From assembly GCA_963820405.1 (NCBI GenBank), contig CAWFZZ010000013.1, positions 10,510 through 74,509 of the forward strand: a DNA stretch of 64,000 nt. Direction: 5' to 3'. Below are positions 43,652-52,860 of this stretch, in pieces; within the stretch, counting starts at the first letter, position 1; every line of letters starts with the position of its first letter. Source of the DNA: Bryobacterales bacterium. Its GTDB lineage: Bacteria; Acidobacteriota; Terriglobia; Bryobacterales; Bryobacteraceae. The notes under the pieces were generated by a model, which had not been told where the DNA came from, did no database searches, and worked only from the letters and a program-made list of their open reading frames with translations. The position numbers were made by a program, and so were the translations under genes.

Positions 43652-44491
43652 TCAATTCTTTAGATGGGAACGATCCTTTTCGTTCTCGTTGCAGAAGTAT
43701 TCGAAAACATCCGAATCGGCCCACAGCTCCTCGGTGAATTTGATGGTAAAGGGTTTGGTGTAGGTCTGCGGATCGTCGAAAGTCATTTCGACATTCAAGT
43801 GTCCGAAGTCGGGGCGGTGATAGCGTTCCAGGATGCGCAGGGCTTCGCTATGGGGGTGGCCCATCAGATCGAGCGAGGTTTTGTCGTTGAAGCCGGCGGT
43901 TTCCACCACCAGCGTGTCGCGCTCCCACTTGCCGACGGAGTATCCGAGCCAGGACGGCTGCACGATTTCTTTCGGGAGCCCGCGGCCGTCGGTGTAGATT
44001 TGGCGATGCGAACCGTCGGTTTCGTGCAGGATAACGATTTGCCAGGGTGATTGAACGATCTTATTGGGCTCCGAGACAAGGTTGTTGATGGGGATGCCGG
44101 CGGGCAGGCAAGTGCCCAAGGGGTCGGCGTCTGATGGCGGGCGGCGGAACTTTTCTGCAATTTCGGGCCGCATCGGGACCTCTCCCGGCTTGAAGTCCAC
44201 AAAGATATTGATGGCGTATTTGGAAATGGTGTCAATTTCCATGCCGGGCACGTTGGTGAGGCCGACGTTGTCGCCGTAGAGCCGCTTCATTTCCTCGAGC
44301 GAAGTGGGATGAACATGCCAGACGCCGGAGAGATCCGGCTTGCCGTTGGAGGCACGAGGCGCGGGGGCCGCGAGGTTGGGTTTACCGTCGCGAGTGCGGG
44401 GCGTTCCGGGGGTGGGATAGTTCAACCATTGCGCCGGCGCGGCGGAGAGAACGGCGAGCACCAGGAGCAGCCGCTGAAGCGAAATGATCAT
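43652..44491 (-). CDS. secreted protein, paralog family X (copy C)
   Basis: 279 aa. CLPAGIP, WLGYSVGKWERDTLVVE, GHPHSEALRILERY, FDDPQTYTKPF and a C-terminal FCNENEKD. Confidence 0.7.
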   Translation of the reverse strand: MIISLQRLLLVLAVLSAAPAQWLNYPTPGTPRTRDGKPNLAAPAPRASNGKPDLSGVWHVHPTSLEEMKRLYGDNVGLTNVPGMEIDTISKYAINIFVDFKPGEVPMRPEIAEKFRRPPSDADPLGTCLPAGIPINNLVSEPNKIVQSPWQIVILHETDGSHRQIYTDGRGLPKEIVQPSWLGYSVGKWERDTLVVETAGFNDKTSLDLMGHPHSEALRILERYHRPDFGHLNVEMTFDDPQTYTKPFTIKFTEELWADSDVFEYFCNENEKDRSHLKN

Positions 44492-44587
44492 GACCTGTAT
44501 GCTATCGTAAACACCCTGTGGAGGATTTTGATGACTCGATCAACGCTAGTGTTATGTCCCTCGAAAAAAGTGACAATGCTGCCAGGC

Positions 44588-44631
44588 GTTCACACGATTG
44601 TGAACGCGGCACGCACGAGTGCGTGCGCCAC
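44588..44631 (+). repeat. REP-A repeat, copy 9
   Basis: gttcacacgattgtgaacgcggcacgcacgagtgcgtgcgccac, in a divergent intergenic region. Confidence 0.9.
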
Positions 44632-44647
44632 GGTGCTTCAGCAGCTA

Positions 44648-45166
44648 TTGTCAAGTAATAGATGGGACACCACACTAGCTCTCTACGGTTGCCTGGCTCT
44701 GGCGCTGTTGGCCTCGGGGTGCTCTCGACCAATGTCTCCCGATACGATGGCTGCGGATGAGAGCGCAATTAAAGATCAGGACGCGCAATGGGCGAAAGTG
44801 GCGGGCGCGAATGATCTGGAGGCAACGGTTTCCTATTACACGGATGACGCGTCGTTGCTGCCTCCGAACGCTCCTATCGCCACCGGCAAGCAGGCGATTC
44901 GCGCGGTGTGGGCCAACACGATACTGAGCCCGGACGCCACTGTGACGTGGCAGGTGACTAAGGCTGACGCTGCACGGTCCGGCGAGCTGGCCTATGTGAT
45001 GGGCGTTTATCAGATTACAGCGAAAAATCCAAAGGGCAAGTCCCTGGAGGACCGCGGCAAGCTGGTGGAGGTGTGGAAAAAGCAGGCGGACGGTAAATGG
45101 AAAGTGGTGACGGACATTTTCAACTCCGACCTGCCGGTGCCGGCGCCGGTGGAGAAAAAGGAATAA
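44648..45166 (+). CDS. DUF4440/SnoaL-like lipoprotein
   Basis: The ORF track entry 44309..45166 runs through REP-A, so the start is moved to TTG 44648. This gives the leader ..LALYGCLALALLASGC (lipobox). ATG 44732 is the alternative. Body: DESAIKDQDAQWAKVAGANDLEATVSYYTDDASLLPPNAP. Confidence 0.55.
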   Translation: MSSNRWDTTLALYGCLALALLASGCSRPMSPDTMAADESAIKDQDAQWAKVAGANDLEATVSYYTDDASLLPPNAPIATGKQAIRAVWANTILSPDATVTWQVTKADAARSGELAYVMGVYQITAKNPKGKSLEDRGKLVEVWKKQADGKWKVVTDIFNSDLPVPAPVEKKE

Positions 45167-45208
45167 GAGTTTTGCATCTGATATGCTTCCAGTGAGAGTT
45201 TTTGGAGG

Positions 45209-45607
45209 TTGAAAATGAGGGTACCGGCAATCGTCAGTTGCGTGGTGTTGGGGGCGGCAATTTTTCTGACTCCCCTCGCTGAGGCTCACCATAGCAACTC
45301 GGCCTTCTATGTGACGAAAGTCATCACCATTAAAGGCGTTGTAAAAGAAGTGAAATGGGCGAATCCGCATATTTGGGTGATCGTGACCGTGGATGACGGG
45401 AAGGGCAACAAAGTGGACTGGAAGGTGGAGGGGCGCCCGCCCGGAATCTTGATTCGCTCCGGCTGGACGCCGAAGTCCATACAGGTCGGCGAAACGATCA
45501 CCGTCGACTTAAGCCCGGCCAAGGACGACACGGCCTCGGGTCTGATGGCGCGGGTGACGAAGGCAGACGGCACGATTCTCGCCAATGCTCCGCCGCCGAC
45601 GGAATAA
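45209..45607 (+). CDS. small exported protein, DUF6152-like (mature N-terminus His-His)
   Basis: 132 aa. Leader ..FLTPLAEA followed by HHSNSAFY. Paralogous to 61959..62327. Confidence 0.6.
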   Translation: MKMRVPAIVSCVVLGAAIFLTPLAEAHHSNSAFYVTKVITIKGVVKEVKWANPHIWVIVTVDDGKGNKVDWKVEGRPPGILIRSGWTPKSIQVGETITVDLSPAKDDTASGLMARVTKADGTILANAPPPTE

Positions 45608-45616
45608 AGGACGCCC

Positions 45617-46390
45617 ATGAAGTTCGACAAAATTCTTCTCGGCGCCATGGTGGGCATGGCGGGGCTCTACGCCCAGTCGACACCGCCCGATTTTTCGGGC
45701 GTGTATTATCCGATTTCGCCCTTCGGCCGGTTCAGCGGCGGTCCGGCTGCCGGAGCGGCGGGTCAACGCCAGGGACCGCCTCCACGTCCCACCGCCTCGG
45801 CCCCGTTGTCGGATGGATCGCGAGGCCGCACGCCGGATGAGCCCTCGCTCACGCCCGAATACATGGCGAAGTGGGAAATGATCAGCAAAACGCGGATCGC
45901 CGGATCGCCCGAATATGATTTGACGGCTAAGTGCCTGCCGCCCGGAATGCCGGCCATGATGAGCATGGCTTATGGCATGGAGGTGATGCAGAACAAGGAC
46001 AAGATCACCTTCTTCAGCGAGCTGAACGATGCATTGCGGCGGGTGTACCTGGACGGGCGCAAGCCTTCGCAAAAGGTGCTGGATGATCCGACTTACGCGG
46101 GTTATTCGACGGGTCACTGGGAAGGCGACACGTTGGTGGTGGACACGGTGGCGTTGCGCGACAACACCTTCATCGAAGGATTCACGCCGCACAGCGACGC
46201 GATGACCGTACACGAGCGCATTCGATTGAAGGAACCGGGCCTTTTGGAAGATCGCATTACCGTTACCGATCCCAAGGCGCTCACGAAGACTTGGGAGACA
46301 GTGAAAACATATCGCAAGGCGTCGCGGGAGAAAGGGAACGACGAGCTGCGAGAGTTTGCGTGCGCCGAAGGTTTGGGAGAGGCAAAGTGA
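45617..46390 (+). CDS. secreted protein, paralog family X (copy D)
   Basis: 257 aa. CLPPGMPAMMSM, YAGYSTGHWEGDTLVVDTV, TPHSDAMTVHERIRL and FACAEG. Confidence 0.7.
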   Translation: MKFDKILLGAMVGMAGLYAQSTPPDFSGVYYPISPFGRFSGGPAAGAAGQRQGPPPRPTASAPLSDGSRGRTPDEPSLTPEYMAKWEMISKTRIAGSPEYDLTAKCLPPGMPAMMSMAYGMEVMQNKDKITFFSELNDALRRVYLDGRKPSQKVLDDPTYAGYSTGHWEGDTLVVDTVALRDNTFIEGFTPHSDAMTVHERIRLKEPGLLEDRITVTDPKALTKTWETVKTYRKASREKGNDELREFACAEGLGEAK

Positions 46391-47145
46391 GGGCCACAGC
46401 CCTAGCGTTAGGGCTTGCGGCCGCCGGCGCGCTGTGGGGGCAGATGCCGCCCGATTTTTCGGGCGTCTACTATCCGGTGAATCCCTTTGGTCGATTCGCA
46501 GGCGCACCCAAAGCAGGAGCGCCCGCAGGACCGCCGCCCAAACCGACTGCTTCAGCGCCGGTCGGGGATGGCTCTAATGGGAGAAGGCCGGATGAGCCGT
46601 CGCTCAAGGCTGAATACCTGGCGAAGTGGCAAGTGATCAGCAAATCGCTCATCTCAGGTTCTTCCGAATACGACGCGACGGCGAAGTGCCTGCCTCCGGG
46701 CATGCCCTCGATGATGAGCATGTTTTATGGCATGGAGGTGATGCAGAACAAGGACAAAATCACCTTCTTCAGCGAGCTGAACGATGCGATGCGACGCGTT
46801 TATCTGGACGGGCGCAAGCCTTCGCAAAAGGTTCTGGACGATCCCACCTACGCGGGTTACTCGACGGGACATTGGGACGGGGATACGTTGGTAGTGGATA
46901 CGGTGGCAATCCGCGACGATACGTTCATCGAAGGATTCACGCCGCATAGCGATGCGATGACCGTGCACGAACGCATTCGATTGAAGGAGCCGGGTTTGTT
47001 GGAAGATCGGATCACGGTTTCCGATCCCAAGGCGCTGACGAAGTCCTGGGAGACGGTGAAGACTTACCGCAAGGCGAAGCCGGGAACGGGGACGGACGAG
47101 CTTCGGGAGTTCGCATGCGCGGAGGGAATTGCGGACGCGAAGTGA
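46387..47145 (+). CDS. secreted protein, paralog family X (copy E; recent tandem duplicate of D)
   Basis: GTG 46387 overlaps the stop of copy D (GTGA) and gives the leader VRATALALGLAAAGALWG. Near-identical to copy D over most of its length. Confidence 0.7.
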   Translation: MRATALALGLAAAGALWGQMPPDFSGVYYPVNPFGRFAGAPKAGAPAGPPPKPTASAPVGDGSNGRRPDEPSLKAEYLAKWQVISKSLISGSSEYDATAKCLPPGMPSMMSMFYGMEVMQNKDKITFFSELNDAMRRVYLDGRKPSQKVLDDPTYAGYSTGHWDGDTLVVDTVAIRDDTFIEGFTPHSDAMTVHERIRLKEPGLLEDRITVSDPKALTKSWETVKTYRKAKPGTGTDELREFACAEGIADAK

Positions 47146-47377
47146 GGGCCCCGGCGCTTGCGTTGGTGCTGGAGGAGATCCTTGGCACTGCAAAGAATAT
47201 CCGGGCACTTCTCAGCGGAGCAAAGTATGATGTTGAAGCTTTACGATCATAGGAACGGTGAGGTGTCGCTTGATGAAGCCGAACGTATCGTGATTTGAGA
47301 TAGGAAACGCGAGAATTGGGAAACGCCACTCATCGCGTGTCTGGGGTGGGGTTCGCTCGTCTGGGGATCTTCCGAAG

Positions 47378-47716
47378 CTAAACCCACTTGATGGCGTTAC
47401 GCGAAATAAAGAAGTGGCTGCCACATCGATTTGTTGGCTGCCAGAGAGACGGACGTACTGTAATCCGCTTTCCTTCAACGAGGAGATCCCAACGGGGGCA
47501 CGCGTTCTTCATAAGGTTGACGTCAATTCGTGCTCCGCACCTGCATGGGCACTGCAGCACTATCCATCGCGGCACGCCGACCTTCTTCACGATGAACGCC
47601 GCCGCGCCTAAGCGTTTGGGAACTTGGCTCATCGTCGATACGTGGACGATCCGGGAGATCTTCTTCCGCCTTCGCAGCCGAAACCACGTATCCCGGATCA
47701 TTGCGCCGATCTTCAT
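47378..47716 (-). CDS. Cys-rich small protein (DUF6527-like), last gene of the Ubl operon
   Basis: ATG 47714-47716 overlaps the E1 stop (ATGA), giving MKIGAMIRD... Motifs WIVLQCPCRCGARIDVNL and TNRCGSHFFISRNAIKW. The ORF track gives the longer 47378..47767. Confidence 0.6.
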   Translation of the reverse strand: MKIGAMIRDTWFRLRRRKKISRIVHVSTMSQVPKRLGAAAFIVKKVGVPRWIVLQCPCRCGARIDVNLMKNACPRWDLLVEGKRITVRPSLWQPTNRCGSHFFISRNAIKWV

Positions 47717-49095
47717 TCCGGTCTCCAGGTCGTTTCCAGAAAAAGATTTAGGTCTCCTCGGCCCCATTTTGTGCGATCAGCACAAAAGCAATCATCCATG
47801 CTTGGCGTTCGATTCTTGCCGATATGGTTCGCATCGAAGCGGCAAATGATCTCCGTGGAGTTTGCATCCGCTCCCATAAAGCCCGTTAATCGATGGAGCA
47901 TTTGGTTGATCGCCGCGGCGGCCACCGAGGTTGTGAAGGTTATAACGGCTGGGTCAGGTGTTTCTAGTTCTGGCGCGTATCCCTCACGCCGTAGTCTGTC
48001 GGCTTCGTCAGGATTAGTAGCATCGAGAACCTCTGCACGAATGCGATCTGCGTGGATTCGCCCCCGGCAGATTAGACACGCCGCGCCCGGCATTAGGAGG
48101 GTAACGCGGCCTTGGACTGAGCGTATGATTCCGTCGGCCGAGTCGATCTTGACGGCCATATCAAACACTGGGATGAGATAGTAGGTGCTTAAGCGGTTGA
48201 GCAGAGACCGCCCCCATTGATCATCGGTGCATCCAAAAATCAAATCGCAATTCCGAAATTCCTTCAGGGCGGATTCGAAGGTAATCGGCCGGTTCAGCGG
48301 CGTGATGGCCGTACCCAAGCCAATTTCGGAACCGAGCCGGTGAGACAGCGCCACTTTGGATTTACCCGCATCCGTCAGGCGTGATCCATACACTCTTGTG
48401 ACATTCGACTCAACGAGGCACTGCGGATCGGCAACAAGTATCTGACCGACCCCGAGGCGAATAAGCTGCTCAACAACGCTGGAACCGGTTCCCCCGCCTC
48501 CAACGACCCCTATGCTTAGGCTCTTTAGGAGCTGCTGAAGATCTGGACCGAATGCGCGGACCTGTCGGTCATAAATGTTCAAGTCAACGCCGGCTTCGGC
48601 GTTCTGAGAGAAAAACCGAAATCGATCACCAATCACCCGAATAACCTCTAGCGGTACAGCGGCGCCGCCGTCAAGCCAGACGCGGCCCACCGGATTATCG
48701 GGCGCCGAAAACACAATACTTGCGTGTACTCCCTGGCCTCGGATTCGGTTGTATGCTGTTGCGAACAGTGTTCGCTCTTCCCTGTCGTCCTGCCGCGAAT
48801 GCCTGGGGACTTCCGGCGGATGAGAGTGCACAAAAGTGAAGCATTGCTGCGATCGATGTGCCCGCTTCAGGGCACGCAGGAAAGACGGTGCCGCAATCTT
48901 CATGTGTACCGTCGAGGACTCGACGATCTCGCTCTGGTCAACCGGCAGTACGTCCTGTACCAACAGCCGTGTTTCAACATCGCTTTCCGAGATACCGCAA
49001 AGCAGGTAGGCAGCCCGTTCCAACCGCGGAGCCTGGAACAGATGTGTAACGAGGTCTGTGTATTGATCAGCGAGAAACGTAACCGAATACCGCAT
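47713..49095 (-). CDS. JAB/JAMM peptidase - ThiF/E1 adenylyltransferase fusion
   Basis: N-terminal LERAAYLLCG plus FVHSHPPEVPRHSRQDD, an exact HxHx7Sx2D JAMM motif. Central IGVVGGGGTGSSVVEQLIRLGVGQILVADPQ Rossmann/ThiF motif. Cys pairs CLICRG and CFCADR. ATG 49093-49095 overlaps the E2 stop. Confidence 0.8.
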   Translation of the reverse strand: MRYSVTFLADQYTDLVTHLFQAPRLERAAYLLCGISESDVETRLLVQDVLPVDQSEIVESSTVHMKIAAPSFLRALKRAHRSQQCFTFVHSHPPEVPRHSRQDDREERTLFATAYNRIRGQGVHASIVFSAPDNPVGRVWLDGGAAVPLEVIRVIGDRFRFFSQNAEAGVDLNIYDRQVRAFGPDLQQLLKSLSIGVVGGGGTGSSVVEQLIRLGVGQILVADPQCLVESNVTRVYGSRLTDAGKSKVALSHRLGSEIGLGTAITPLNRPITFESALKEFRNCDLIFGCTDDQWGRSLLNRLSTYYLIPVFDMAVKIDSADGIIRSVQGRVTLLMPGAACLICRGRIHADRIRAEVLDATNPDEADRLRREGYAPELETPDPAVITFTTSVAAAAINQMLHRLTGFMGADANSTEIICRFDANHIGKNRTPSMDDCFCADRTKWGRGDLNLFLETTWRPE

Positions 49096-49547
49096 CAAAT
49101 TCCCTTTTCAAGCTCCTTGCGGATCGCTCTTAAGAACGTTTGAAGCGTATCGGTGCCTGGACGCCACGTACCGGAAGGTAAATGTCGCGACCATCGTTGC
49201 CAATTGCGGCCGGCATAAGTCTCATGCACATCTGCTGACTTCGGGCAGGTTCCGTTGGAACACCGGATGTCCGGCGACGTCCAGAACATGTCAGGGTTTG
49301 CGCTGGGATAGCCCGCAGGTATTCGAACGAGCAGATCGCAGACCTGGGGCGCGTAGGCGGCCGGTAAAACGTAGCCTTGTATCATAACGTTCACCACAGC
49401 GCCCTCGGTCTCGATCGTGTATTGATATCCCTTGTCGGCGAGATACTTGGTATCCGCCTCGGGTAAAAGTTGAGTTTCTGGCACGTCGGCCCTTAGTCCT
49501 CCGCCCCGGGATTCAGGTCGCGTTGAGCCGAATAGAAGTGCTGCCAT
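49095..49547 (-). CDS. E2/UBC-like protein (Prok-E2_E-like)
   Basis: YPSANPDMFWTSPDIRCSNG (Asn about 12 residues before a Cys, as in UBC HPN...C) and WQRWSRHLPSGTWRPGTDTL. ATG 49547 overlaps the Ubl gene by 55 nt. The alternative in-frame GTG at 49484 lies 9 nt after the Ubl stop and has GGAGGA upstream. Confidence 0.65.
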   Translation of the reverse strand: MAALLFGSTRPESRGGGLRADVPETQLLPEADTKYLADKGYQYTIETEGAVVNVMIQGYVLPAAYAPQVCDLLVRIPAGYPSANPDMFWTSPDIRCSNGTCPKSADVHETYAGRNWQRWSRHLPSGTWRPGTDTLQTFLRAIRKELEKGI

Positions 49548-49774
49548 TCCTTCAGCTTGATCTCGCGTCCATCGTTCGCAATCAGTTTGTCGTCAATCGG
49601 CCCCGGCTCCTCCTCGTACAGGTCATACCCTGCGGCGACACTTCCGAGCGCGTACAGTGCTGCGCCAGTAGTCGGACTAGGCGACTTGTGCTCCTTCCGG
49701 TCAATGTAGATGGGTACCGGATGATGCCCGTTGTGATGTTCTGCATAAAAACTCCTTTCAAAGTTCCTAGCCAC
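49493..49774 (-). CDS. ubiquitin-like beta-grasp candidate (single Multiubiquitin-type domain)
   Basis: 93 aa: VPIYIDRKEHKSPSPTTGAALYALGSVAAGYDLYEEEPGPIDDKLIANDGREIKLKEWQHFYSAQRDLNPGAED. First gene of the operon. GTG start without an obvious SD (see finding). Confidence 0.55.
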   Translation of the reverse strand: MARNFERSFYAEHHNGHHPVPIYIDRKEHKSPSPTTGAALYALGSVAAGYDLYEEEPGPIDDKLIANDGREIKLKEWQHFYSAQRDLNPGAED

Positions 49775-49796
49775 TTGGCGAGCAGCCAGGAAGCTG

Positions 49797-49876
49797 TTAT
49801 CCTTTTACAGGACAAAGGTATCACCAAACGCTCGGTGGTGTCAACGCCAACAGTACATTGATATCCTATTACAGGA
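49797..49876. promoter_or_regulatory. divergent control region with two 16-nt operator-like direct repeats
   Basis: ttatccttttacagga (49797-49812) and atatcctattacagga (49861-49876) are 14/16 identical. The second overlaps the SD of the XRE gene. Confidence 0.45.
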
Positions 49877-49879
49877 AGT

Positions 49880-50242
49880 ATGATGAACATCTACAAGACG
49901 ATAGGCGAGAAAATACGGGAGCTCCGGACGCACCACAACGGCCGAGGCATCAGCCAGGACGCGTTGGCAGCTGAGATCGGGACCACGCCGAATACGATTT
50001 CGAGATGGGAAACGGCTACGTATAAGCCTTCTGTTTCCGATCTTGAAGTGCTGGCGAAGTTCTTCGGAACGCCGATTTCAGTTTTCTTCCCTGGAATGGA
50101 CACCGATATCAAGGCGCAGGCATTGCTCAGTGCGACCCGAGGGCTGAACGATGAAGAGCTCGACGAACTCACCAAGTATGCGTTGTTTCGCCGCGCGCGC
50201 CAAGAATTGAACAAGACCAAGAAAGTGCGCGGCGGAAAGTAA
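49880..50242 (+). CDS. XRE-family helix-turn-helix regulator (CapH-like position)
   Basis: IRELRTHHNGRGISQDALAAEIGTTPNTISRWETATYKPSVSDLEVLAKFFG is a classic HTH_3. Confidence 0.85.
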   Translation: MMNIYKTIGEKIRELRTHHNGRGISQDALAAEIGTTPNTISRWETATYKPSVSDLEVLAKFFGTPISVFFPGMDTDIKAQALLSATRGLNDEELDELTKYALFRRARQELNKTKKVRGGK

Positions 50243-50248
50243 TGGCTT

Positions 50249-50878
50249 ATGTCGAGTCTCTACGAACAACTGAAAGAACTGGCTCGGAGGAAGCGCGGCG
50301 AGCACAGCGTGGAGACGTCGACGTTCGGATTGCGCAAGGTCCGCGAGATTTACTTGGCGGAGGGTATCATCATTGACAGTCGCGAGCTCTCAGCGACGAT
50401 TCGCGCGGTTTATATGTGTGACGGCGGTGATCCCTCAGTTCTCGTTAATAAAAAGCTACCGACCGAGCCAAGATTGTTCTCGCTGGTGCATGAGTTGAAA
50501 CACCACTACTGCGATCAGGCCGCGATCGAAAATGGCGAGATCCGCTGCGGCGATTACAACGCAAACCGCACGATCGAAATCGGCGCCGAAGTTTTTGCAG
50601 CGGAGTTCATCTACCCCGAGAGTGAATTCCTGAGTCATGCTGACGCGCTCGGATTTGTACGAAACGAGGTATCCGCCGAGGACTTGGTTCGCTTCAAGAA
50701 GTCGTGTGGTGCGCCGGTCAGCTACAAATTCATTCAGAAGCGGTTTGCTTTGTCGGGACACATCGCGAAGGGGCAGTTCGATAAGGTTCAATTTCACAAG
50801 CTCGAAGAAGAGATCTACGGCGTGCCGATTTATAAACAGGCGTGGTTTAAGAAGCGACGTGCTTCCAGCGCCAAGTGA
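50249..50878 (+). CDS. ImmA/IrrE-family zinc metallopeptidase (CapP-like position)
   Basis: HExxH in FSLVHELKHHYCD, with downstream EVFAAEFIYPE. Lies 7 nt after the HTH gene. Confidence 0.8.
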   Translation: MSSLYEQLKELARRKRGEHSVETSTFGLRKVREIYLAEGIIIDSRELSATIRAVYMCDGGDPSVLVNKKLPTEPRLFSLVHELKHHYCDQAAIENGEIRCGDYNANRTIEIGAEVFAAEFIYPESEFLSHADALGFVRNEVSAEDLVRFKKSCGAPVSYKFIQKRFALSGHIAKGQFDKVQFHKLEEEIYGVPIYKQAWFKKRRASSAK

Positions 50879-51001
50879 CAGGCCCACAACGTGACTAGGA
50901 CGAACTACTAGCAGCGCTTACTCCCGAGAAAATCTATTTATCAAGAGTAGAGTGCAGCTGCTTACTACGCGTGAAAGCGGCGCATCCGAGGAGGATCGAT
51001 C

Positions 51002-51427
51002 CTAAGCGGCCACTACCACGACATTCTGAGCGGAGGCCGCCCGTCTTAGGTCTTCGTCGGCCGTCGCTAAGGGCAGACCCTTTCGCATGGCCAAGTCCAG
51101 ATACGCGGCATCATAGGCCGCCAGCTTCCATTTGCGTGCCTGCGCCTCAAGATCAACATTGGTCCATAGATCGCGGATCTCGACCGTTATTGGCAAAGCC
51201 TTGAGCCGGGAGAGGAATTCAGAGATCTGCTCCTCAGTGATTCGTTTCCGTTTTTCAAAAGAGACGTAGAGGCTGTTGGCGATCTCGAAAGCCCAAACCT
51301 CGGGGACCAGAGCCTCTTGCGTCGCCAATAATGACAGAATGCTGCGGCTGTATACGGTGTCCTCGCTTGGATCGCCGGGAAAGCACCAGGAAACGGCAAT
51401 TGAGGCGTCAAGAACGAACACGGCCAT
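51002..51427 (-). CDS. vapC: VapC PIN-domain toxin
   Basis: MAVFVLDASIAVSW, EVWAFEIANSL, AYDAAYLDLA and LATADEDL. Confidence 0.8.
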   Translation of the reverse strand: MAVFVLDASIAVSWCFPGDPSEDTVYSRSILSLLATQEALVPEVWAFEIANSLYVSFEKRKRITEEQISEFLSRLKALPITVEIRDLWTNVDLEAQARKWKLAAYDAAYLDLAMRKGLPLATADEDLRRAASAQNVVVVAA

Positions 51428-51666
51428 TAAAGCCGGTGTCCCTCATGCAAGAGCTTTCGTGTCACGGGCTCGCCGAGACTGAGGTGATATTTGTCGCCGA
51501 ATTCCTGCATGCGCCTGACGGCATCCTCACGTGATGGTGCTTGCCGCTGGCTATTGGGAAGTGCATCGATCGCGGAATTGATGAACTCGTCAACGGAATG
51601 TACCAAGCCGTCCTCAATCGCTTCGCGGATGGCTCTTTCCTGATCCGGTGTGAGCGTGATGGTCAT
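51427..51666 (-). CDS. type II antitoxin (partner of the 51002..51427 PIN)
   Basis: 79 aa. 1-nt overlap with vapC. MTITLTPDQERAIREAIEDG. Confidence 0.6.
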   Translation of the reverse strand: MTITLTPDQERAIREAIEDGLVHSVDEFINSAIDALPNSQRQAPSREDAVRRMQEFGDKYHLSLGEPVTRKLLHEGHRL

Positions 51667-51732
51667 GGGATCTCACTTCTAGACTAGCGCGCCAGTGTAC
51701 CGAGGGGATTGCGGAAGCGAAATAGCGGCGCG

Positions 51733-51771
51733 GCCAAAAACAAAGGCCTCGCGGATGCTCTCCGCGAGGCC
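51733..51771 (-). terminator. rho-independent terminator for the 51796..52860 gene
   Basis: ggcctcgcgga-tgctc-tccgcgaggcc (11-bp perfect stem), followed on the minus strand by TTTGTTTTTGG. Lies 25 nt downstream of the stop. Confidence 0.7.
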
Positions 51772-51795
51772 AAACTGATACCAAGGAGATACTAA

Positions 51796-52860
51796 TTACC
51801 AGCGACGTCCGTAACCCCAGCGTCCTCCGAACCCGAAGACGACTGATGGGCCATAGTAATAAGGGTAGTACGGATACGGGTATGGCGCTGCGTAGTAACC
51901 GTAGTAAGGCGGCGGGGGCCGGTAGCCTGGCCCATAGGCCGATCCATAGCCAGGGCGCGGCGCCGGACGCGCATAGCGCGCGTTGTAGTCGGGCTGCGCG
52001 GGATACTGGAACGCCTGCTGCGAATTGTCGAGCGTGATGGGAGTCTCCATGCTAAACGTCATCGGAGTTTCAGGGCCGACGACTGTTGCGCGTCCGCGAG
52101 TAAACAGAACCCCGATGGTTGAAACCACCAGGCCCGCCGCTGCGCCTACACCCGCTCCAACGCCACCGTTCACTCCAGCGCCGATTGCCGCGCCGGTTGC
52201 GGTTGTCGCGCCGATGGCAAAGGCATCGCGTCCGTAGGAGGTATTGCCTCGCCGGTCGATCAATTTCGTTTTCACTTGAATCTGGCGGCCGTCAGCCAAC
52301 TGGATTCCGGTGAGTTCTAATTTCAGGTGGGAAACGCCCGACACGCGGCCCGCCTTCTGCGCTTCGGTAACGATGCCGGTCACGGTTTCTCCCCGGCGCG
52401 CGATCAGCAATCCATTCGCGACAATTGGTTCGAGCAATGTTCCGGTGAACGCATCGCCGGTTTGATTGTGATCGCTCGACAACCGTTCGTTCAGACGAAC
52501 CGTCACCCACATTCCGGCCGGAAGCGTGATGGTGGTTGGCGCGTAGCGTACCGGTGGAGCGGCTTGTGGAACACCCTGGGCGGGAGGCGGCGGGGGAGCC
52601 TGCTGTTGATCTTGCGGATCGCCGGCAGGGGTCGGCGGAAGAGGATCGGCAGCAACCTGTTGTTGATCCGTTTGCGGATCGAACTTGCGCCATCCCCCGG
52701 AGGGAGCCGAAGGAGCCGGAGGCGGCGCGGGCTGATTCGCGTCCTGGGCGAACCCAACCTGAACCAGACCAGGCAAAGTGCCCACCAGCGTAAGGATTAG
52801 GACCGAAGCGGCAGGCCAAGTAAATCGGGGATTTATTTTCATGTTAGTCATGCCTCTCAA
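51796..52860 (-). CDS. secreted protein with Pro/Gln-rich N-terminal region and Tyr/Pro/Gly-rich tail
   Basis: 354 aa with a signal peptide. Tail YGYYAAPYPYPYYPYYYGPSVVFGFGGRWGYGRRW. No family recognised. Confidence 0.5.
   Translation of the reverse strand: MRGMTNMKINPRFTWPAASVLILTLVGTLPGLVQVGFAQDANQPAPPPAPSAPSGGWRKFDPQTDQQQVAADPLPPTPAGDPQDQQQAPPPPPAQGVPQAAPPVRYAPTTITLPAGMWVTVRLNERLSSDHNQTGDAFTGTLLEPIVANGLLIARRGETVTGIVTEAQKAGRVSGVSHLKLELTGIQLADGRQIQVKTKLIDRRGNTSYGRDAFAIGATTATGAAIGAGVNGGVGAGVGAAAGLVVSTIGVLFTRGRATVVGPETPMTFSMETPITLDNSQQAFQYPAQPDYNARYARPAPRPGYGSAYGPGYRPPPPYYGYYAAPYPYPYYPYYYGPSVVFGFGGRWGYGRRW

What the first reader, a model, noticed from the sequence alone, without database searches (positions are those of the whole stretch)
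47378..50878. Ubiquitin-like conjugation operon (Ubl / E2-like / JAB-E1 fusion / Cys-rich protein) under a divergent XRE + ImmA/IrrE pair
Seen in sequence: four tightly coupled minus-strand genes. (1) A 93-aa beta-grasp-like protein. (2) An E2-like protein with YPSANPDMFW-x7-C (RCSNG) and WQRWSRH..WRPG. (3) A fusion of a JAMM peptidase (upstream Glu in LERAAYLLCG; exact HxHx7Sx2D in HSHPPEVPRHSRQD) to a ThiF/E1 adenylation domain (GVVGGGGTGSSVVEQLIRLG; CLIC and CFC Cys pairs). (4) A 112-aa Cys-rich protein (CPCRCG ... RCGSHF). The stop/start overlaps TGATG at 49093-49097 and ATGA at 47713-47716 argue for translational coupling. An XRE HTH gene followed 7 nt later by an HExxH ImmA/IrrE peptidase is transcribed divergently. 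Established knowledge: Ubl + E2 + E1 + JAB operons were predicted computationally in bacteria (the Multiubiquitin / Prok-E2 / Prok-JAB / ThiF families of Iyer, Burroughs and Aravind). Related modules (CBASS Cap2/Cap3, Bil, Bub) have been shown to act in anti-phage defence by protein conjugation. HTH + ImmA/IrrE pairs (CapH/CapP) de-repress defence operons after DNA damage. Inference: this is an inducible Ubl-conjugation defence system. To my knowledge this specific four-gene variant (single-domain Ubl, JAB fused to E1, DUF6527-like terminal gene, CapH/CapP-like control, acidobacterial host) has no experimental characterisation.
Basis: partly seen in the sequence, partly recalled or inferred. 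Interest (0 to 1): 0.92.

Follow-up and report, generated by a model that had tools for sequence, protein, structure and literature searches.

The report
Type I Bub ubiquitin-like conjugation operon
This is a bacterial operon that attaches a small ubiquitin-like protein to other proteins; it belongs to the Bub family, which was catalogued and dissected biochemically in 2024, so it is a new example of a known system and not a new kind of system.

Summary
The four minus-strand genes are a Type I Bub (formerly 6E.1/DUF6527) operon: bubA (one beta-grasp Ubl), bubB (Prok-E2_E), bubCD (JAB peptidase fused to E1) and bubE (DUF6527). A divergent HTH plus M78 peptidase pair sits beside them. Ye et al. 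(bioRxiv 10.1101/2024.11.21.623953) solved Citrobacter BubCD and BubB structures and showed how the pathway works. Their Table S1 already lists this four-gene layout, often with CapH+CapP. The conserved residues are the Bub oxyester set: E1 Tyr373, E2 Ser99/His101/Asp65, and BubE Ser90/His101. E2 Cys75 is not conserved. Details specific to this locus:
- The E2 most likely starts at GTG 49484, not ATG 49547.
- The Ubl carries a 3-residue tail after its invariant Gly.
- The ancestral bubA ATG is one base out of frame.
- The peptidase lacks the GAF domain of canonical CapP.
- A palindrome, TCCTGT-N-ACAGGA, occurs twice in the intergenic region and travels with this regulator type in other loci.
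The biological role of Bub, anti-phage or otherwise, is still unproven.

The parts
49493..49774 (-). bubA: a pro-Ubl with a single beta-grasp domain. This is the longest ORF (93 aa from GTG 49774). The part shared with homologues begins at about 49744. The invariant C-terminal Gly codon lies at 49505-49507 and is followed by a 3-residue tail (AED) and TAA.
   Evidence: 52 standalone homologues of 78-106 aa share an invariant FYSAQxxLNPG motif. The AF2 model has pLDDT 84.9 and its top Foldseek hits are BubA structures. 51 of 52 homologues have variable tails of 1-16 aa after the Gly. The Shine-Dalgarno site GAAAGGAG plus ATG 49744 is one base out of frame compared with L001 and L002.
49095..49484 (-). 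bubB: an E2-like protein of 129 aa starting at GTG 49484. Predicted catalytic residues are Ser99, His101 and Asp65. The longer ORF from ATG 49547 is probably not used.
   Evidence: Pfam Prok-E2_E, E=9.6e-36. PDB match to Citrobacter BubB, E=8e-9, with QRWSRH and DMF aligned. Homologues are 125-135 aa and start just after the Ubl stop. S, H and D are invariant in 12 sequences and Cys75 is not.
47713..49095 (-). bubCD: a JAB/JAMM peptidase (E26, H90, H92, S100, D103) fused to a ThiF-type E1. E1 features are G199-G204, R234, D291 and the crossover-loop Tyr373. Cys340/343 and Cys436/438 probably form a structural zinc site.
   Evidence: Pfam ThiF 2.9e-25 and Prok-JAB 5.2e-7. PDB match to Citrobacter BubCD 9ea4, E=8e-32, over residues 11-407.
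47378..47716 (-). bubE: a DUF6527 Ser-His protease with a zinc finger, 112 aa. Key residues are C56, C58, C60, C98, Ser90 and His101.
   Evidence: Pfam DUF6527, E=2.3e-19. PS and CxSHF are invariant in 10 sequences. The family's function is described.
49880..50242 (+). CapH-like XRE-family HTH repressor, 120 aa (119 aa if it starts at the second ATG, 49883).
   Evidence: Pfam HTH_3, E=7.5e-14. PADLOC capH, E=3.2e-8. It is paired with the peptidase gene in L002, L003, L011, L012, L014 and L016.
50249..50878 (+). CapP-like M78 (ImmA/IrrE-family) zinc peptidase, 209 aa. It has HExxH (H81, E82, H85), an invariant loop Cys100 and Glu114. It has no GAF domain.
   Evidence: Pfam Peptidase_M78, E=2.4e-9. 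PADLOC capP, E=2.1e-9, covering the N-terminal half only. The AF2 model has pLDDT 91.9, with strands only at 41-67. Top Foldseek hits are Deinococcus PprI/IrrE.
49800..49812 (.). Predicted operator site 2, TCCTGTAAAAGGA when read on the minus strand. The consensus is TCCTGT-N-ACAGGA. It lies next to a conserved TTGACA (49839-49844, minus strand) upstream of bubA.
   Evidence: 4 strand-matches in the window against 0.15 expected. It is conserved in L001. The same palindrome occurs in the HTH-operon spacer of L014/L015, L016 and L012/L013.
49864..49876 (.). Predicted operator site 1, TCCTGTAATAGGA when read on the minus strand. It ends 3 nt before the HTH gene's start codon, which suggests autoregulation.

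Best explanation
This is a Type I Bub (bacterial ubiquitination-like, formerly 6E.1/DUF6527) operon of the subtype in which bubA and bubB are separate genes. It sits under a divergent HTH repressor plus M78 peptidase pair.

The proposed mechanism is inferred by homology to the Citrobacter system, except where marked:
1. The HTH protein binds two TCCTGT-N-ACAGGA palindromes in the 105-nt spacer and represses both transcription units. This step is my inference from motif conservation.
2. A stress signal, probably DNA damage or phage infection, activates the M78 peptidase. The peptidase cleaves the repressor, and bubA-bubB-bubCD-bubE are then transcribed and translated in a coupled fashion.
3. 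Pro-BubA ends in NPG-AED. The JAB domain of BubCD trims the tail to expose the Gly.
4. The E1 domain adenylates that Gly (Arg234, Asp291) and takes it onto Tyr373 of the cysteine-free crossover loop as an oxyester.
5. BubA then passes to Ser99 of BubB, assisted by His101 and Asp65, again as an oxyester. From there it goes to lysines of still-unknown targets.
6. BubE (Ser90/His101, Zn finger) removes BubA from conjugates.

The biological output, whether anti-phage defence or a stress response, is suggested only by context.
For: - Family identity: Pfam hits; PDB hits to Citrobacter BubCD (8e-32) and BubB (8e-9); the BubA-like fold of the Ubl.
- Catalytic residues: they map consistently with a +2 chain offset to Citrobacter E28, D104, R227, Y370 and D299, S333, H335, and they are invariant in 10-12 sequences from five phyla.
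- The architecture is already in the literature: definition of the family and its mechanism; Table S1 rows with separate Ubl and E2 genes, a DUB+E1 fusion, DUF6527 and CapH/CapP.
- Split organisation: 9 of 10 related loci are split and 1 is fused (L003). The fused L003 protein shares ...NPGA with the split ones, followed by a linker.
- Pro-peptide tails: 51 of 52 Ubl homologues have them.
- Regulator: PADLOC capH and capP hits and an IrrE/PprI-like fold. The same pair, about 60% identical, sits beside another Bub operon, beside a TIR-E1-JAB-SIR2 operon, and inside an integrase-bearing element.
- Operator: the palindrome is found in each of those spacers.
Against: - No experiment exists on this locus or on any split-type operon.
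- The ancestral SD-ATG start of bubA is out of frame here. The only in-frame start is a GTG with no Shine-Dalgarno site. The same sequence appears in an independent Logan assembly, so BubA may be made poorly and this copy could be impaired.
- The peptidase lacks the GAF domain, which in canonical CapP forms half of the ssDNA groove and docks CapH. The activating signal may therefore differ.
- The consensus promoter scan found no sigma-70-like site.
- PADLOC 2.0 has no model that hits the Ubl, E2 or BubE.
- Anti-phage activity of Bub operons had not been demonstrated in the papers available to me.
Confidence: 0.85

Rival explanations
1. This is a canonical thioester ubiquitin-like cascade. The E1 would use a Cys of the CLIC/CFC pairs, and the E2 would use the Cys of RCSNG.
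For: The Cys residues exist. CLIC and CxC are conserved within this clade of E1s.
Against: - E2 Cys75 is Leu or Arg in most relatives, including sequences 76-79% identical to the window protein.
- CLIC lies before the crossover loop, which corresponds to Citrobacter residues 347-377. The loop itself has no Cys.
- A CxxC...CxC arrangement is the usual structural zinc site of MoeB/ThiF-type adenylating enzymes. This last point rests on my own knowledge.
- The residues that are invariant are the Tyr, the Ser-x-His and the Asp of the oxyester pathway.
Confidence: 0.05
2. This particular copy is a decaying or silent Bub operon. The bubA start has been lost by a 1-nt shift, so little or no Ubl is produced.
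For: - The SD (GAAAGGAG) plus ATG at 49744 aligns with the start codons of L001 and L002 but is one base out of frame. From that ATG the product would be an unrelated 54-aa peptide.
- An independent assembly has the identical sequence.
- Similar decay occurs in relatives. The peptidase gene of L001 is split over two frames, and the E1 gene of L014 is called truncated.
Against: - An in-frame GTG at 49774 keeps a 93-aa ORF open.
- All other genes are intact and retain every catalytic residue.
- Both assemblies may derive from the same reads, so a read-level error is not excluded.
Confidence: 0.2
3. This is a sulfur-carrier or cofactor pathway of the ThiS/MoaD-ThiF type with a JAB peptidase, like CysO-Mec+, and not a protein-conjugation system.
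For: The locus has a beta-grasp protein ending in Gly, a ThiF-family adenylating enzyme (TIGR02356 partial hit, 3.6e-15), and a JAB peptidase.
Against: - All NCBIfam ThiF/MoeB hits are far below their cut-offs.
- An E2 (Prok-E2_E) and BubE are present and syntenic in every relative.
- There are no biosynthetic neighbours.
- The homologous Citrobacter system makes protein conjugates.
Confidence: 0.02

Closest known systems
Type I Bub operon (6E.1), as in Citrobacter sp. RHBSTW-00271 BubAB/BubCD/BubE (Ye et al., bioRxiv 10.1101/2024.11.21.623953; PDB 9ea4, 9eav, 9eae)
   Same: It has the same JAB-E1 fusion, Prok-E2_E E2, DUF6527 protease and BubA-type beta-grasp. All catalytic residues of the oxyester pathway are conserved.
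   Different: - Ubl and E2 are separate genes here. That subtype is already listed in their Table S1, but their biochemistry used a fused BubAB.
- The Ubl has one beta-grasp domain, not three.
- The E1 keeps a CxxC...CxC tetrad that Citrobacter lacks.
- The pro-peptide is 3 residues long instead of being a whole E2.
Type II Bub operon (6E.2): BubA, BubBD (E2-E1 fusion), BubE
   Same: It uses the same protein families and the same oxyester logic, and BubE is present.
   Different: Type II fuses E2 to E1, usually lacks a JAB domain, and has Lys+His instead of His+Asp beside the E2 Ser. The window has a JAB-E1 fusion and the His/Asp set.
Bil (BilABCD) and CBASS Cap2/Cap3 conjugation systems
   Same: They share the Ubl or substrate / E1 / E2 / JAB logic. 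Both are defence-associated and are sometimes under CapH+CapP control.
   Different: Those systems use cysteine thioesters, different E1 architectures (IAD-AAD-CYS, or an E2-E1 fusion) and a separate JAB protein, and they have no DUF6527. The PADLOC E1-E2 (Cap2) models hit only the Rossmann part of the window protein, at 1e-10 or weaker.
CapH+CapP (E. coli MS115-1 / Thauera CBASS regulators; bioRxiv 10.1101/2022.04.27.489752 and 10.64898/2026.05.16.725639)
   Same: - It is a divergent HTH repressor plus HExxH M78 peptidase.
- It has a conserved Cys in the loop between HExxH and the third zinc ligand.
- It is a portable module found next to varied defence operons.
   Different: - The peptidase is 209 aa and lacks the C-terminal GAF domain.
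- There is no sequence-level hit to any solved structure.
- The PADLOC capP hit covers only model positions 6-123 of 242.
ImmR/ImmA (ICEBs1) and DdrO/IrrE (PprI) of Deinococcus
   Same: These are also pairs of an XRE repressor and an M78 peptidase that cleaves it after DNA damage. The best structural matches of the window peptidase are PprI/IrrE.
   Different: IrrE has a GAF domain. ImmA controls mobile-element excision, not an Ubl operon. Sequence identity in the structural alignments is only 16-22%.

Membership tests
Type I Bub operon | JAB/JAMM peptidase fused N-terminally to a ThiF-type E1 (BubCD) | tested here: met
   Pfam Prok-JAB plus ThiF in one 460-aa protein. It aligns to Citrobacter BubCD over residues 11-407, E=8e-32. 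E26, H90, H92, S100 and D103 are conserved.
Type I Bub operon | E1 crossover loop without Cys and with an invariant Tyr (Citrobacter Y370), plus the adenylation Arg (R227) | tested here: met
   Tyr373 and Arg234 align to chain positions Y372 and R229, which are native Y370 and R227. Both are invariant in 11 sequences. The loop segment has no Cys.
Type I Bub operon | E2 of the Prok-E2_E family with an invariant Ser-x-His and an Asp in place of a catalytic Cys | tested here: met
   Prok-E2_E, E=9.6e-36. Ser99, His101 and Asp65 correspond to Citrobacter S333, H335 and D299 and are invariant in 12 sequences. Cys75 is not conserved.
Type I Bub operon | Ubl (BubA) with a beta-grasp fold ending in a conserved Gly that is exposed by proteolysis | tested here: met
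   AF2 model pLDDT 84.9. Top Foldseek hits are BubA structures. Gly is invariant in 52 homologues. Variable tails follow it in 51 of 52. The cleavage itself was not tested.
Type I Bub operon | Ubl encoded as a fusion to E2 (BubAB), as stated in the main text of Ye et al. | tested here: not met
   A TAA stop at 49493-49495 separates the two genes. 9 of 10 related loci are also split. The same authors' Table S1 nonetheless classes such split operons as Type I Bub, so this is a subtype difference and does not exclude membership.
Type I Bub operon | DUF6527 protein (BubE) with a Ser-His dyad and a Cys zinc finger | tested here: met
   PF20137, E=2.3e-19. Ser90, Cys98 and His101 are invariant. C56, C58 and C60 are present. 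The spacing agrees with Citrobacter S92, C99 and H102.
Type I Bub operon | Oxyester intermediates and protein conjugation activity | not testable with these tools
   This needs biochemistry. It is inferred only from conserved residues.
CapH+CapP regulator pair | XRE-type HTH repressor with a C-terminal oligomerisation region, encoded beside the peptidase and divergent from the cargo operon | tested here: met
   HTH_3 at residues 12-68 of 120. PADLOC capH, E=3.2e-8, over residues 3-97. The divergent arrangement is seen. Oligomerisation was not tested.
CapH+CapP regulator pair | HExxH zinc peptidase with a third Glu ligand and a cysteine-switch loop | tested here: met
   H81, E82, H85, C100 and E114 are invariant in 40 homologues. 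The spacing is similar to Thauera H96, E97, H100, C113 and E129. Whether Cys100 ligates the zinc was not tested.
CapH+CapP regulator pair | Three-domain CapP (peptidase, HTH-like linker, C-terminal GAF) with the ssDNA groove between peptidase and GAF | tested here: not met
   The protein is 209 aa. The AF2 model (pLDDT 91.9) has beta strands only at 41-67 and helices thereafter. Canonical CapP has a GAF domain at residues 182-288. I therefore file it as CapP-like, not as CapP.
CapH+CapP regulator pair | Association with diverse defence operons as a portable module | tested here: met
   Homologous pairs (57-62% identical peptidase) lie beside a second Bub operon (L014/L015), a TIR-E1-JAB-SIR2/STALD operon (L016) and an integrase/ParB element (L012).
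Anti-phage defence system | Demonstrated protection against phage | not testable with these tools
   PADLOC 2.0 recognises only the E1 Rossmann part and the regulators. The papers I read state that the targets and role of Bub are unknown.

The most novel reading that the evidence does not exclude
The regulator may be a distinct, very widespread family. It comprises a compact, GAF-less CapP-like peptidase (more than 1000 homologues of about 210 aa at about 60% identity) and an HTH repressor. It has its own conserved operator, TCCTGT-N-ACAGGA, and is plugged in front of different defence cargos (Bub, TIR-E1-JAB-SIR2 and others). Because it lacks the domain that forms the ssDNA groove of CapP and IrrE, it would have to sense its signal in another way. 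In addition, split-type Bub operons would use the JAB domain only to trim a few residues from pro-BubA.
Probability: 0.35. Interest if true: 0.4.

Novelty: new member of a known kind. Interest (0 to 1): 0.25.

Why it matters
It adds a member from an environmental genome, most likely a metagenome-assembled one, to the Bub family. It also shows that the split bubA/bubB subtype, with a short Ubl pro-peptide, dominates among environmental relatives of this locus. That matters for how the role of the JAB domain is understood. The practical leads are modest:
- a predicted operator for a large family of compact CapP-like regulators;
- a natural bubA start-site variant.
It does not open a new mechanism. 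The main open question for Bub remains what it conjugates and why, and this locus does not make that question more tractable than the Citrobacter or E. coli systems already in use.

Tried and rejected
- **Frameshifted BubAB fusion.** I first suspected that the 55-nt overlap of the Ubl and E2 ORFs was a frameshifted fusion, because one extra G in the run cccgggg would give ...NPGGGG-LRADV. I rejected this. The closest homologues have separate 84-85-aa Ubl and 129-133-aa E2 genes, with a stop after NPG plus a short tail.
- **Programmed -1 frameshifting at either junction.** There is no X_XXY_YYZ heptamer in the sequence (read directly).
- **Assembly artefact at the bubA start.** A Logan assembly of run ERR11718638 is 100% identical over 5175 bp. 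The read sets may overlap, so this is not conclusive.
- **Sequence search of the Ubl profile against the PDB.** It found only the E2 part. The structural search was needed to place the Ubl.
- **PDB sequence searches for the two regulators.** They gave nothing useful.
- **Host identification.** Exact look-up of flanking housekeeping proteins found no matches, so taxonomy is unverified.
- **Other features in or around the locus.** I found no tRNA, no Rfam family, no flanking direct repeats, no sigma-70 consensus promoter and no PADLOC hit of note in the neighbours.
- **Newer Bub literature.** The search found only the two 2024 preprints.

Full report
**Observation**

Pfam matches:

| ORF | Family | E-value |
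|---|---|---|
| 49095..49547 | Prok-E2_E | 9.6e-36 |
| 47713..49098 | ThiF | 2.9e-25 |
| 47713..49098 | Prok-JAB | 5.2e-7 |
| 47378..47767 | DUF6527 | 2.3e-19 |
| 49880..50242 | HTH_3 | 7.5e-14 |
| 50249..50878 | Peptidase_M78 | 2.4e-9 |

The 93-aa ORF has no Pfam, NCBIfam or PADLOC hit. All quoted motifs and both start/stop overlaps are present.

**What it is**

The E2 and the JAB-E1 fusion match solved structures named Citrobacter BubB (9eav/9eae, E=8e-9) and Citrobacter BubCD (9ea4, E=8e-32, aligned over residues 11-407). A full-text search for DUF6527 led to two 2024 preprints from one group. Ye et al. (10.1101/2024.11.21.623953) rename the '6E/DUF6527' operons as Bub. They define Type I as a JAB-E1 fusion BubCD, an E2 BubB, a Ubl BubA and the DUF6527 protein BubE. 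Their main findings:
- The pathway runs through oxyesters: E1 Tyr370, then E2 Ser333 with His335 and Asp299.
- BubE is a Ser92/His102 protease with a C4 zinc finger that removes conjugates.
- 31% of 544 Bub operons carry CapH+CapP.

Their main text says that Type I Ubls are fused to the E2. Their Table S1, however, lists about 30 Type I operons with separate Ubl and E2 genes, a DUB+E1 fusion and DUF6527, many with CapH and CapP. That is exactly the layout seen here. No acidobacterial entry appears in that table.

**Test of the Ubl**

A search with the Ubl found 52 standalone homologues of 78-106 aa, none carrying a Pfam annotation. They share an invariant ...FYSAQxxLNPG motif. An AlphaFold2 model built on that alignment has pLDDT 84.9 and a beta-grasp topology. 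Its best PDB matches are the bacterial multi-ubiquitin (BubA) structures from Methylobacterium, Citrobacter and E. coli ZDHYS365 (TM about 0.7, rmsd about 2.1 A), ahead of eukaryotic Ubls.

**Split or fused**

The Ubl and E2 ORFs overlap by 55 nt in different frames, which first suggested a broken BubAB fusion. The relatives argue against that:
- The closest E2 homologues (76-80% identity) are standalone proteins of 129-133 aa.
- In L001 and L002 an 84-85-aa Ubl gene ends ...NPGAEE* or ...NPGAAEA*, and the E2 starts 0-7 nt later.
- Of ten related loci from Acidobacteriota, Gemmatimonadota, Bacteroidota, Bdellovibrionota and Planctomycetota, nine are split and one (L003) is fused. All ten keep the order Ubl-E2-JAB/E1-BubE.

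The E2 here therefore most likely starts at GTG 49484 (129 aa), 8 nt after the Ubl stop. In 51 of 52 Ubl homologues the invariant Gly is followed by a variable tail of 1-16 residues. Here the tail is AED. The Ubl is thus made as a pro-protein, which gives the JAB domain a trimming job even without a fusion. That step is inferred.

**Catalytic residues**

I aligned the window proteins with those of the related loci and the Citrobacter sequences and mapped the numbering.

| Protein | Window residues | Citrobacter equivalents | Conservation |
|---|---|---|---|
| E2 (BubB) | Asp65, Ser99, His101 | D299, S333, H335 | invariant |
| JAB domain | E26, H90, H92, S100, D103 | E26 = E28; D103 = D104 | conserved |
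| E1 domain | Arg234, Tyr373 | R227, Y370 | invariant |
| BubE | Ser90, Cys98, His101 | S92, C99, H102 (matched by motif and spacing) | invariant |

- The segment equivalent to the Citrobacter crossover loop has no Cys.
- The CLIC and CFC pairs flank that loop. They are conserved in this clade and absent in Citrobacter. They resemble the structural zinc site of MoeB/ThiF enzymes; that comparison rests on my own knowledge.
- BubE also carries C56, C58 and C60.

The cysteine-based reading is thus not supported, and the oxyester set is fully present.

**The bubA start**

In L001 and L002 a Shine-Dalgarno site is followed by ATG GAA GAA.... The window has GAAAGGAG-N5-ATG at 49744 in the aligned position, but that ATG is one base out of frame with the conserved ORF. 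From it, translation would give an unrelated 54-aa peptide. The only in-frame start is GTG 49774, which has no Shine-Dalgarno site. This is the 93-aa form that the public records carry. A Logan assembly of run ERR11718638 is 100% identical to the window over 5175 bp, so this is not an artefact of one assembler. Whether this copy makes normal amounts of BubA remains open.

**Regulators**

PADLOC gives capH (3.2e-8) and capP (2.1e-9), the latter over the N-terminal half of the model only. Neither protein matches a solved structure by sequence.

The peptidase belongs to a large family:
- More than 1000 proteins of about 210 aa are about 60% identical to it.
- H81, E82, H85, C100 and E114 are invariant. 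This is HExxH, a Cys in the position of the CapP cysteine-switch loop, and the third zinc ligand.
- Its model (pLDDT 91.9) has three strands in the peptidase core and only helices afterwards.
- Its best structural matches are Deinococcus PprI/IrrE, including the ssDNA complex.

Canonical CapP has a GAF domain at residues 182-288. That domain forms half of the ssDNA groove and docks CapH. The domain is missing here, so I call the protein CapP-like and leave its activating signal open.

Homologous HTH+peptidase pairs sit next to a second split Bub operon (L014/L015), a TIR-E1-JAB-SIR2/STALD operon (L016) and genes in an integrase/ParB element (L012). That is the behaviour of a portable defence regulator.

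**Operator**

The 105-nt spacer between GTG 49774 and the HTH gene (135 nt if counted from ATG 49744) holds two copies of a 13-nt palindrome, at 49800-49812 and 49864-49876. These are the only matches in the 64-kb window, against 0.15 expected by chance. Both copies and an intervening TTGACA are conserved in L001 while the flanks diverge. The consensus TCCTGT-N-ACAGGA recurs in the HTH-to-cargo spacer of L014/L015 (two sites), L016 (one site) and L012/L013 (one site with two mismatches). It is almost absent elsewhere in those loci. The motif tracks the regulator and not the cargo, so it is probably the repressor's binding site. This is an inference. The consensus promoter scan found no sigma-70-type site.

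**Surroundings**

- GC content falls to 0.54-0.56 across about 47-52 kb, against about 0.59-0.62 on either side.
- A PIN-domain gene and a small upstream ORF (51002-51666) flank the peptidase gene.
- There is no tRNA, Rfam match or flanking repeat.
- In L001 the operon lies between an AbiEii gene and UPF0175/DUF3368 genes.
- This context is compatible with a small acquired defence islet but does not prove one.
- The host phylum could not be verified.

**Verdict**

It overrated the novelty, and it picked Cys residues as the chemically important ones, which the conservation data do not support. This is a new member of a known and biochemically characterised family (Type I Bub, split subtype). 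Its locus-specific features are minor:
- a pro-peptide tail on the Ubl;
- a Cys tetrad in the E1;
- a shifted bubA start;
- a GAF-less CapP-like regulator with a predicted operator.

The biological role of Bub operons remains unknown in the literature I could reach.

Noticed in passing
window 49735-49790: The Shine-Dalgarno site plus ATG (49744) that aligns with the bubA start of relatives is one base out of frame with the conserved Ubl ORF. Only an upstream GTG (49774) with no Shine-Dalgarno site is in frame. An independent Logan assembly has the identical sequence.
   Followed up: partly
window 49800-49812 and 49864-49876; L001 5610-5686; L014/L015 6568-6641; L016 6602-6614; L012 6553-6565: The palindrome TCCTGT-N-ACAGGA recurs in the spacer between the HTH gene and whatever operon lies divergent to it, across loci with different cargos. 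It is probably the operator of this regulator family.
   Followed up: partly
L016 2162-6373: The same HTH plus 211-aa M78 peptidase pair sits divergent to an operon with ThsB-type TIR, a 586-aa ThiF/E1 protein, a JAB protein and a SIR2-STALD protein. This is a different conjugation-linked defence cargo.
   Followed up: no
L001 4621-5237; L014 4504-5883 versus L015: There are signs of decay or assembly differences in relatives. The peptidase gene of L001 is split over two reading frames. In L014 the JAB-E1 gene is called as only 240 aa and no BubE is called, whereas the Logan contig L015, with the same coordinates, has intact 459-aa and 117-aa genes.
   Followed up: no
window 51002-51666 (minus strand): A PIN-domain protein (141 aa, PF01850) is preceded by a 79-aa ORF that overlaps it by one base. 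It is likely a VapBC-type toxin-antitoxin pair, directly next to the peptidase gene.
   Followed up: partly
window 43652-47145: This is a cluster of related secreted-looking proteins without Pfam hits (43652-44491, 45617-46390, 46291-47145). The last two are close tandem paralogues. A DUF6152 gene (45209-45607) and a DUF4440/SnoaL-like gene sit with them. Their function is unknown.
   Followed up: no
window 47000-52000: GC content drops to 0.54-0.56 against about 0.59-0.62 on either side. This is compatible with a horizontally acquired islet, but no integrase, tRNA or flanking repeats were found.
   Followed up: partly
L007 4054-4599; L008 4055-4600: In two acidobacterial relatives, BubA has two tandem beta-grasp domains instead of one, within the same operon layout.
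   Followed up: no
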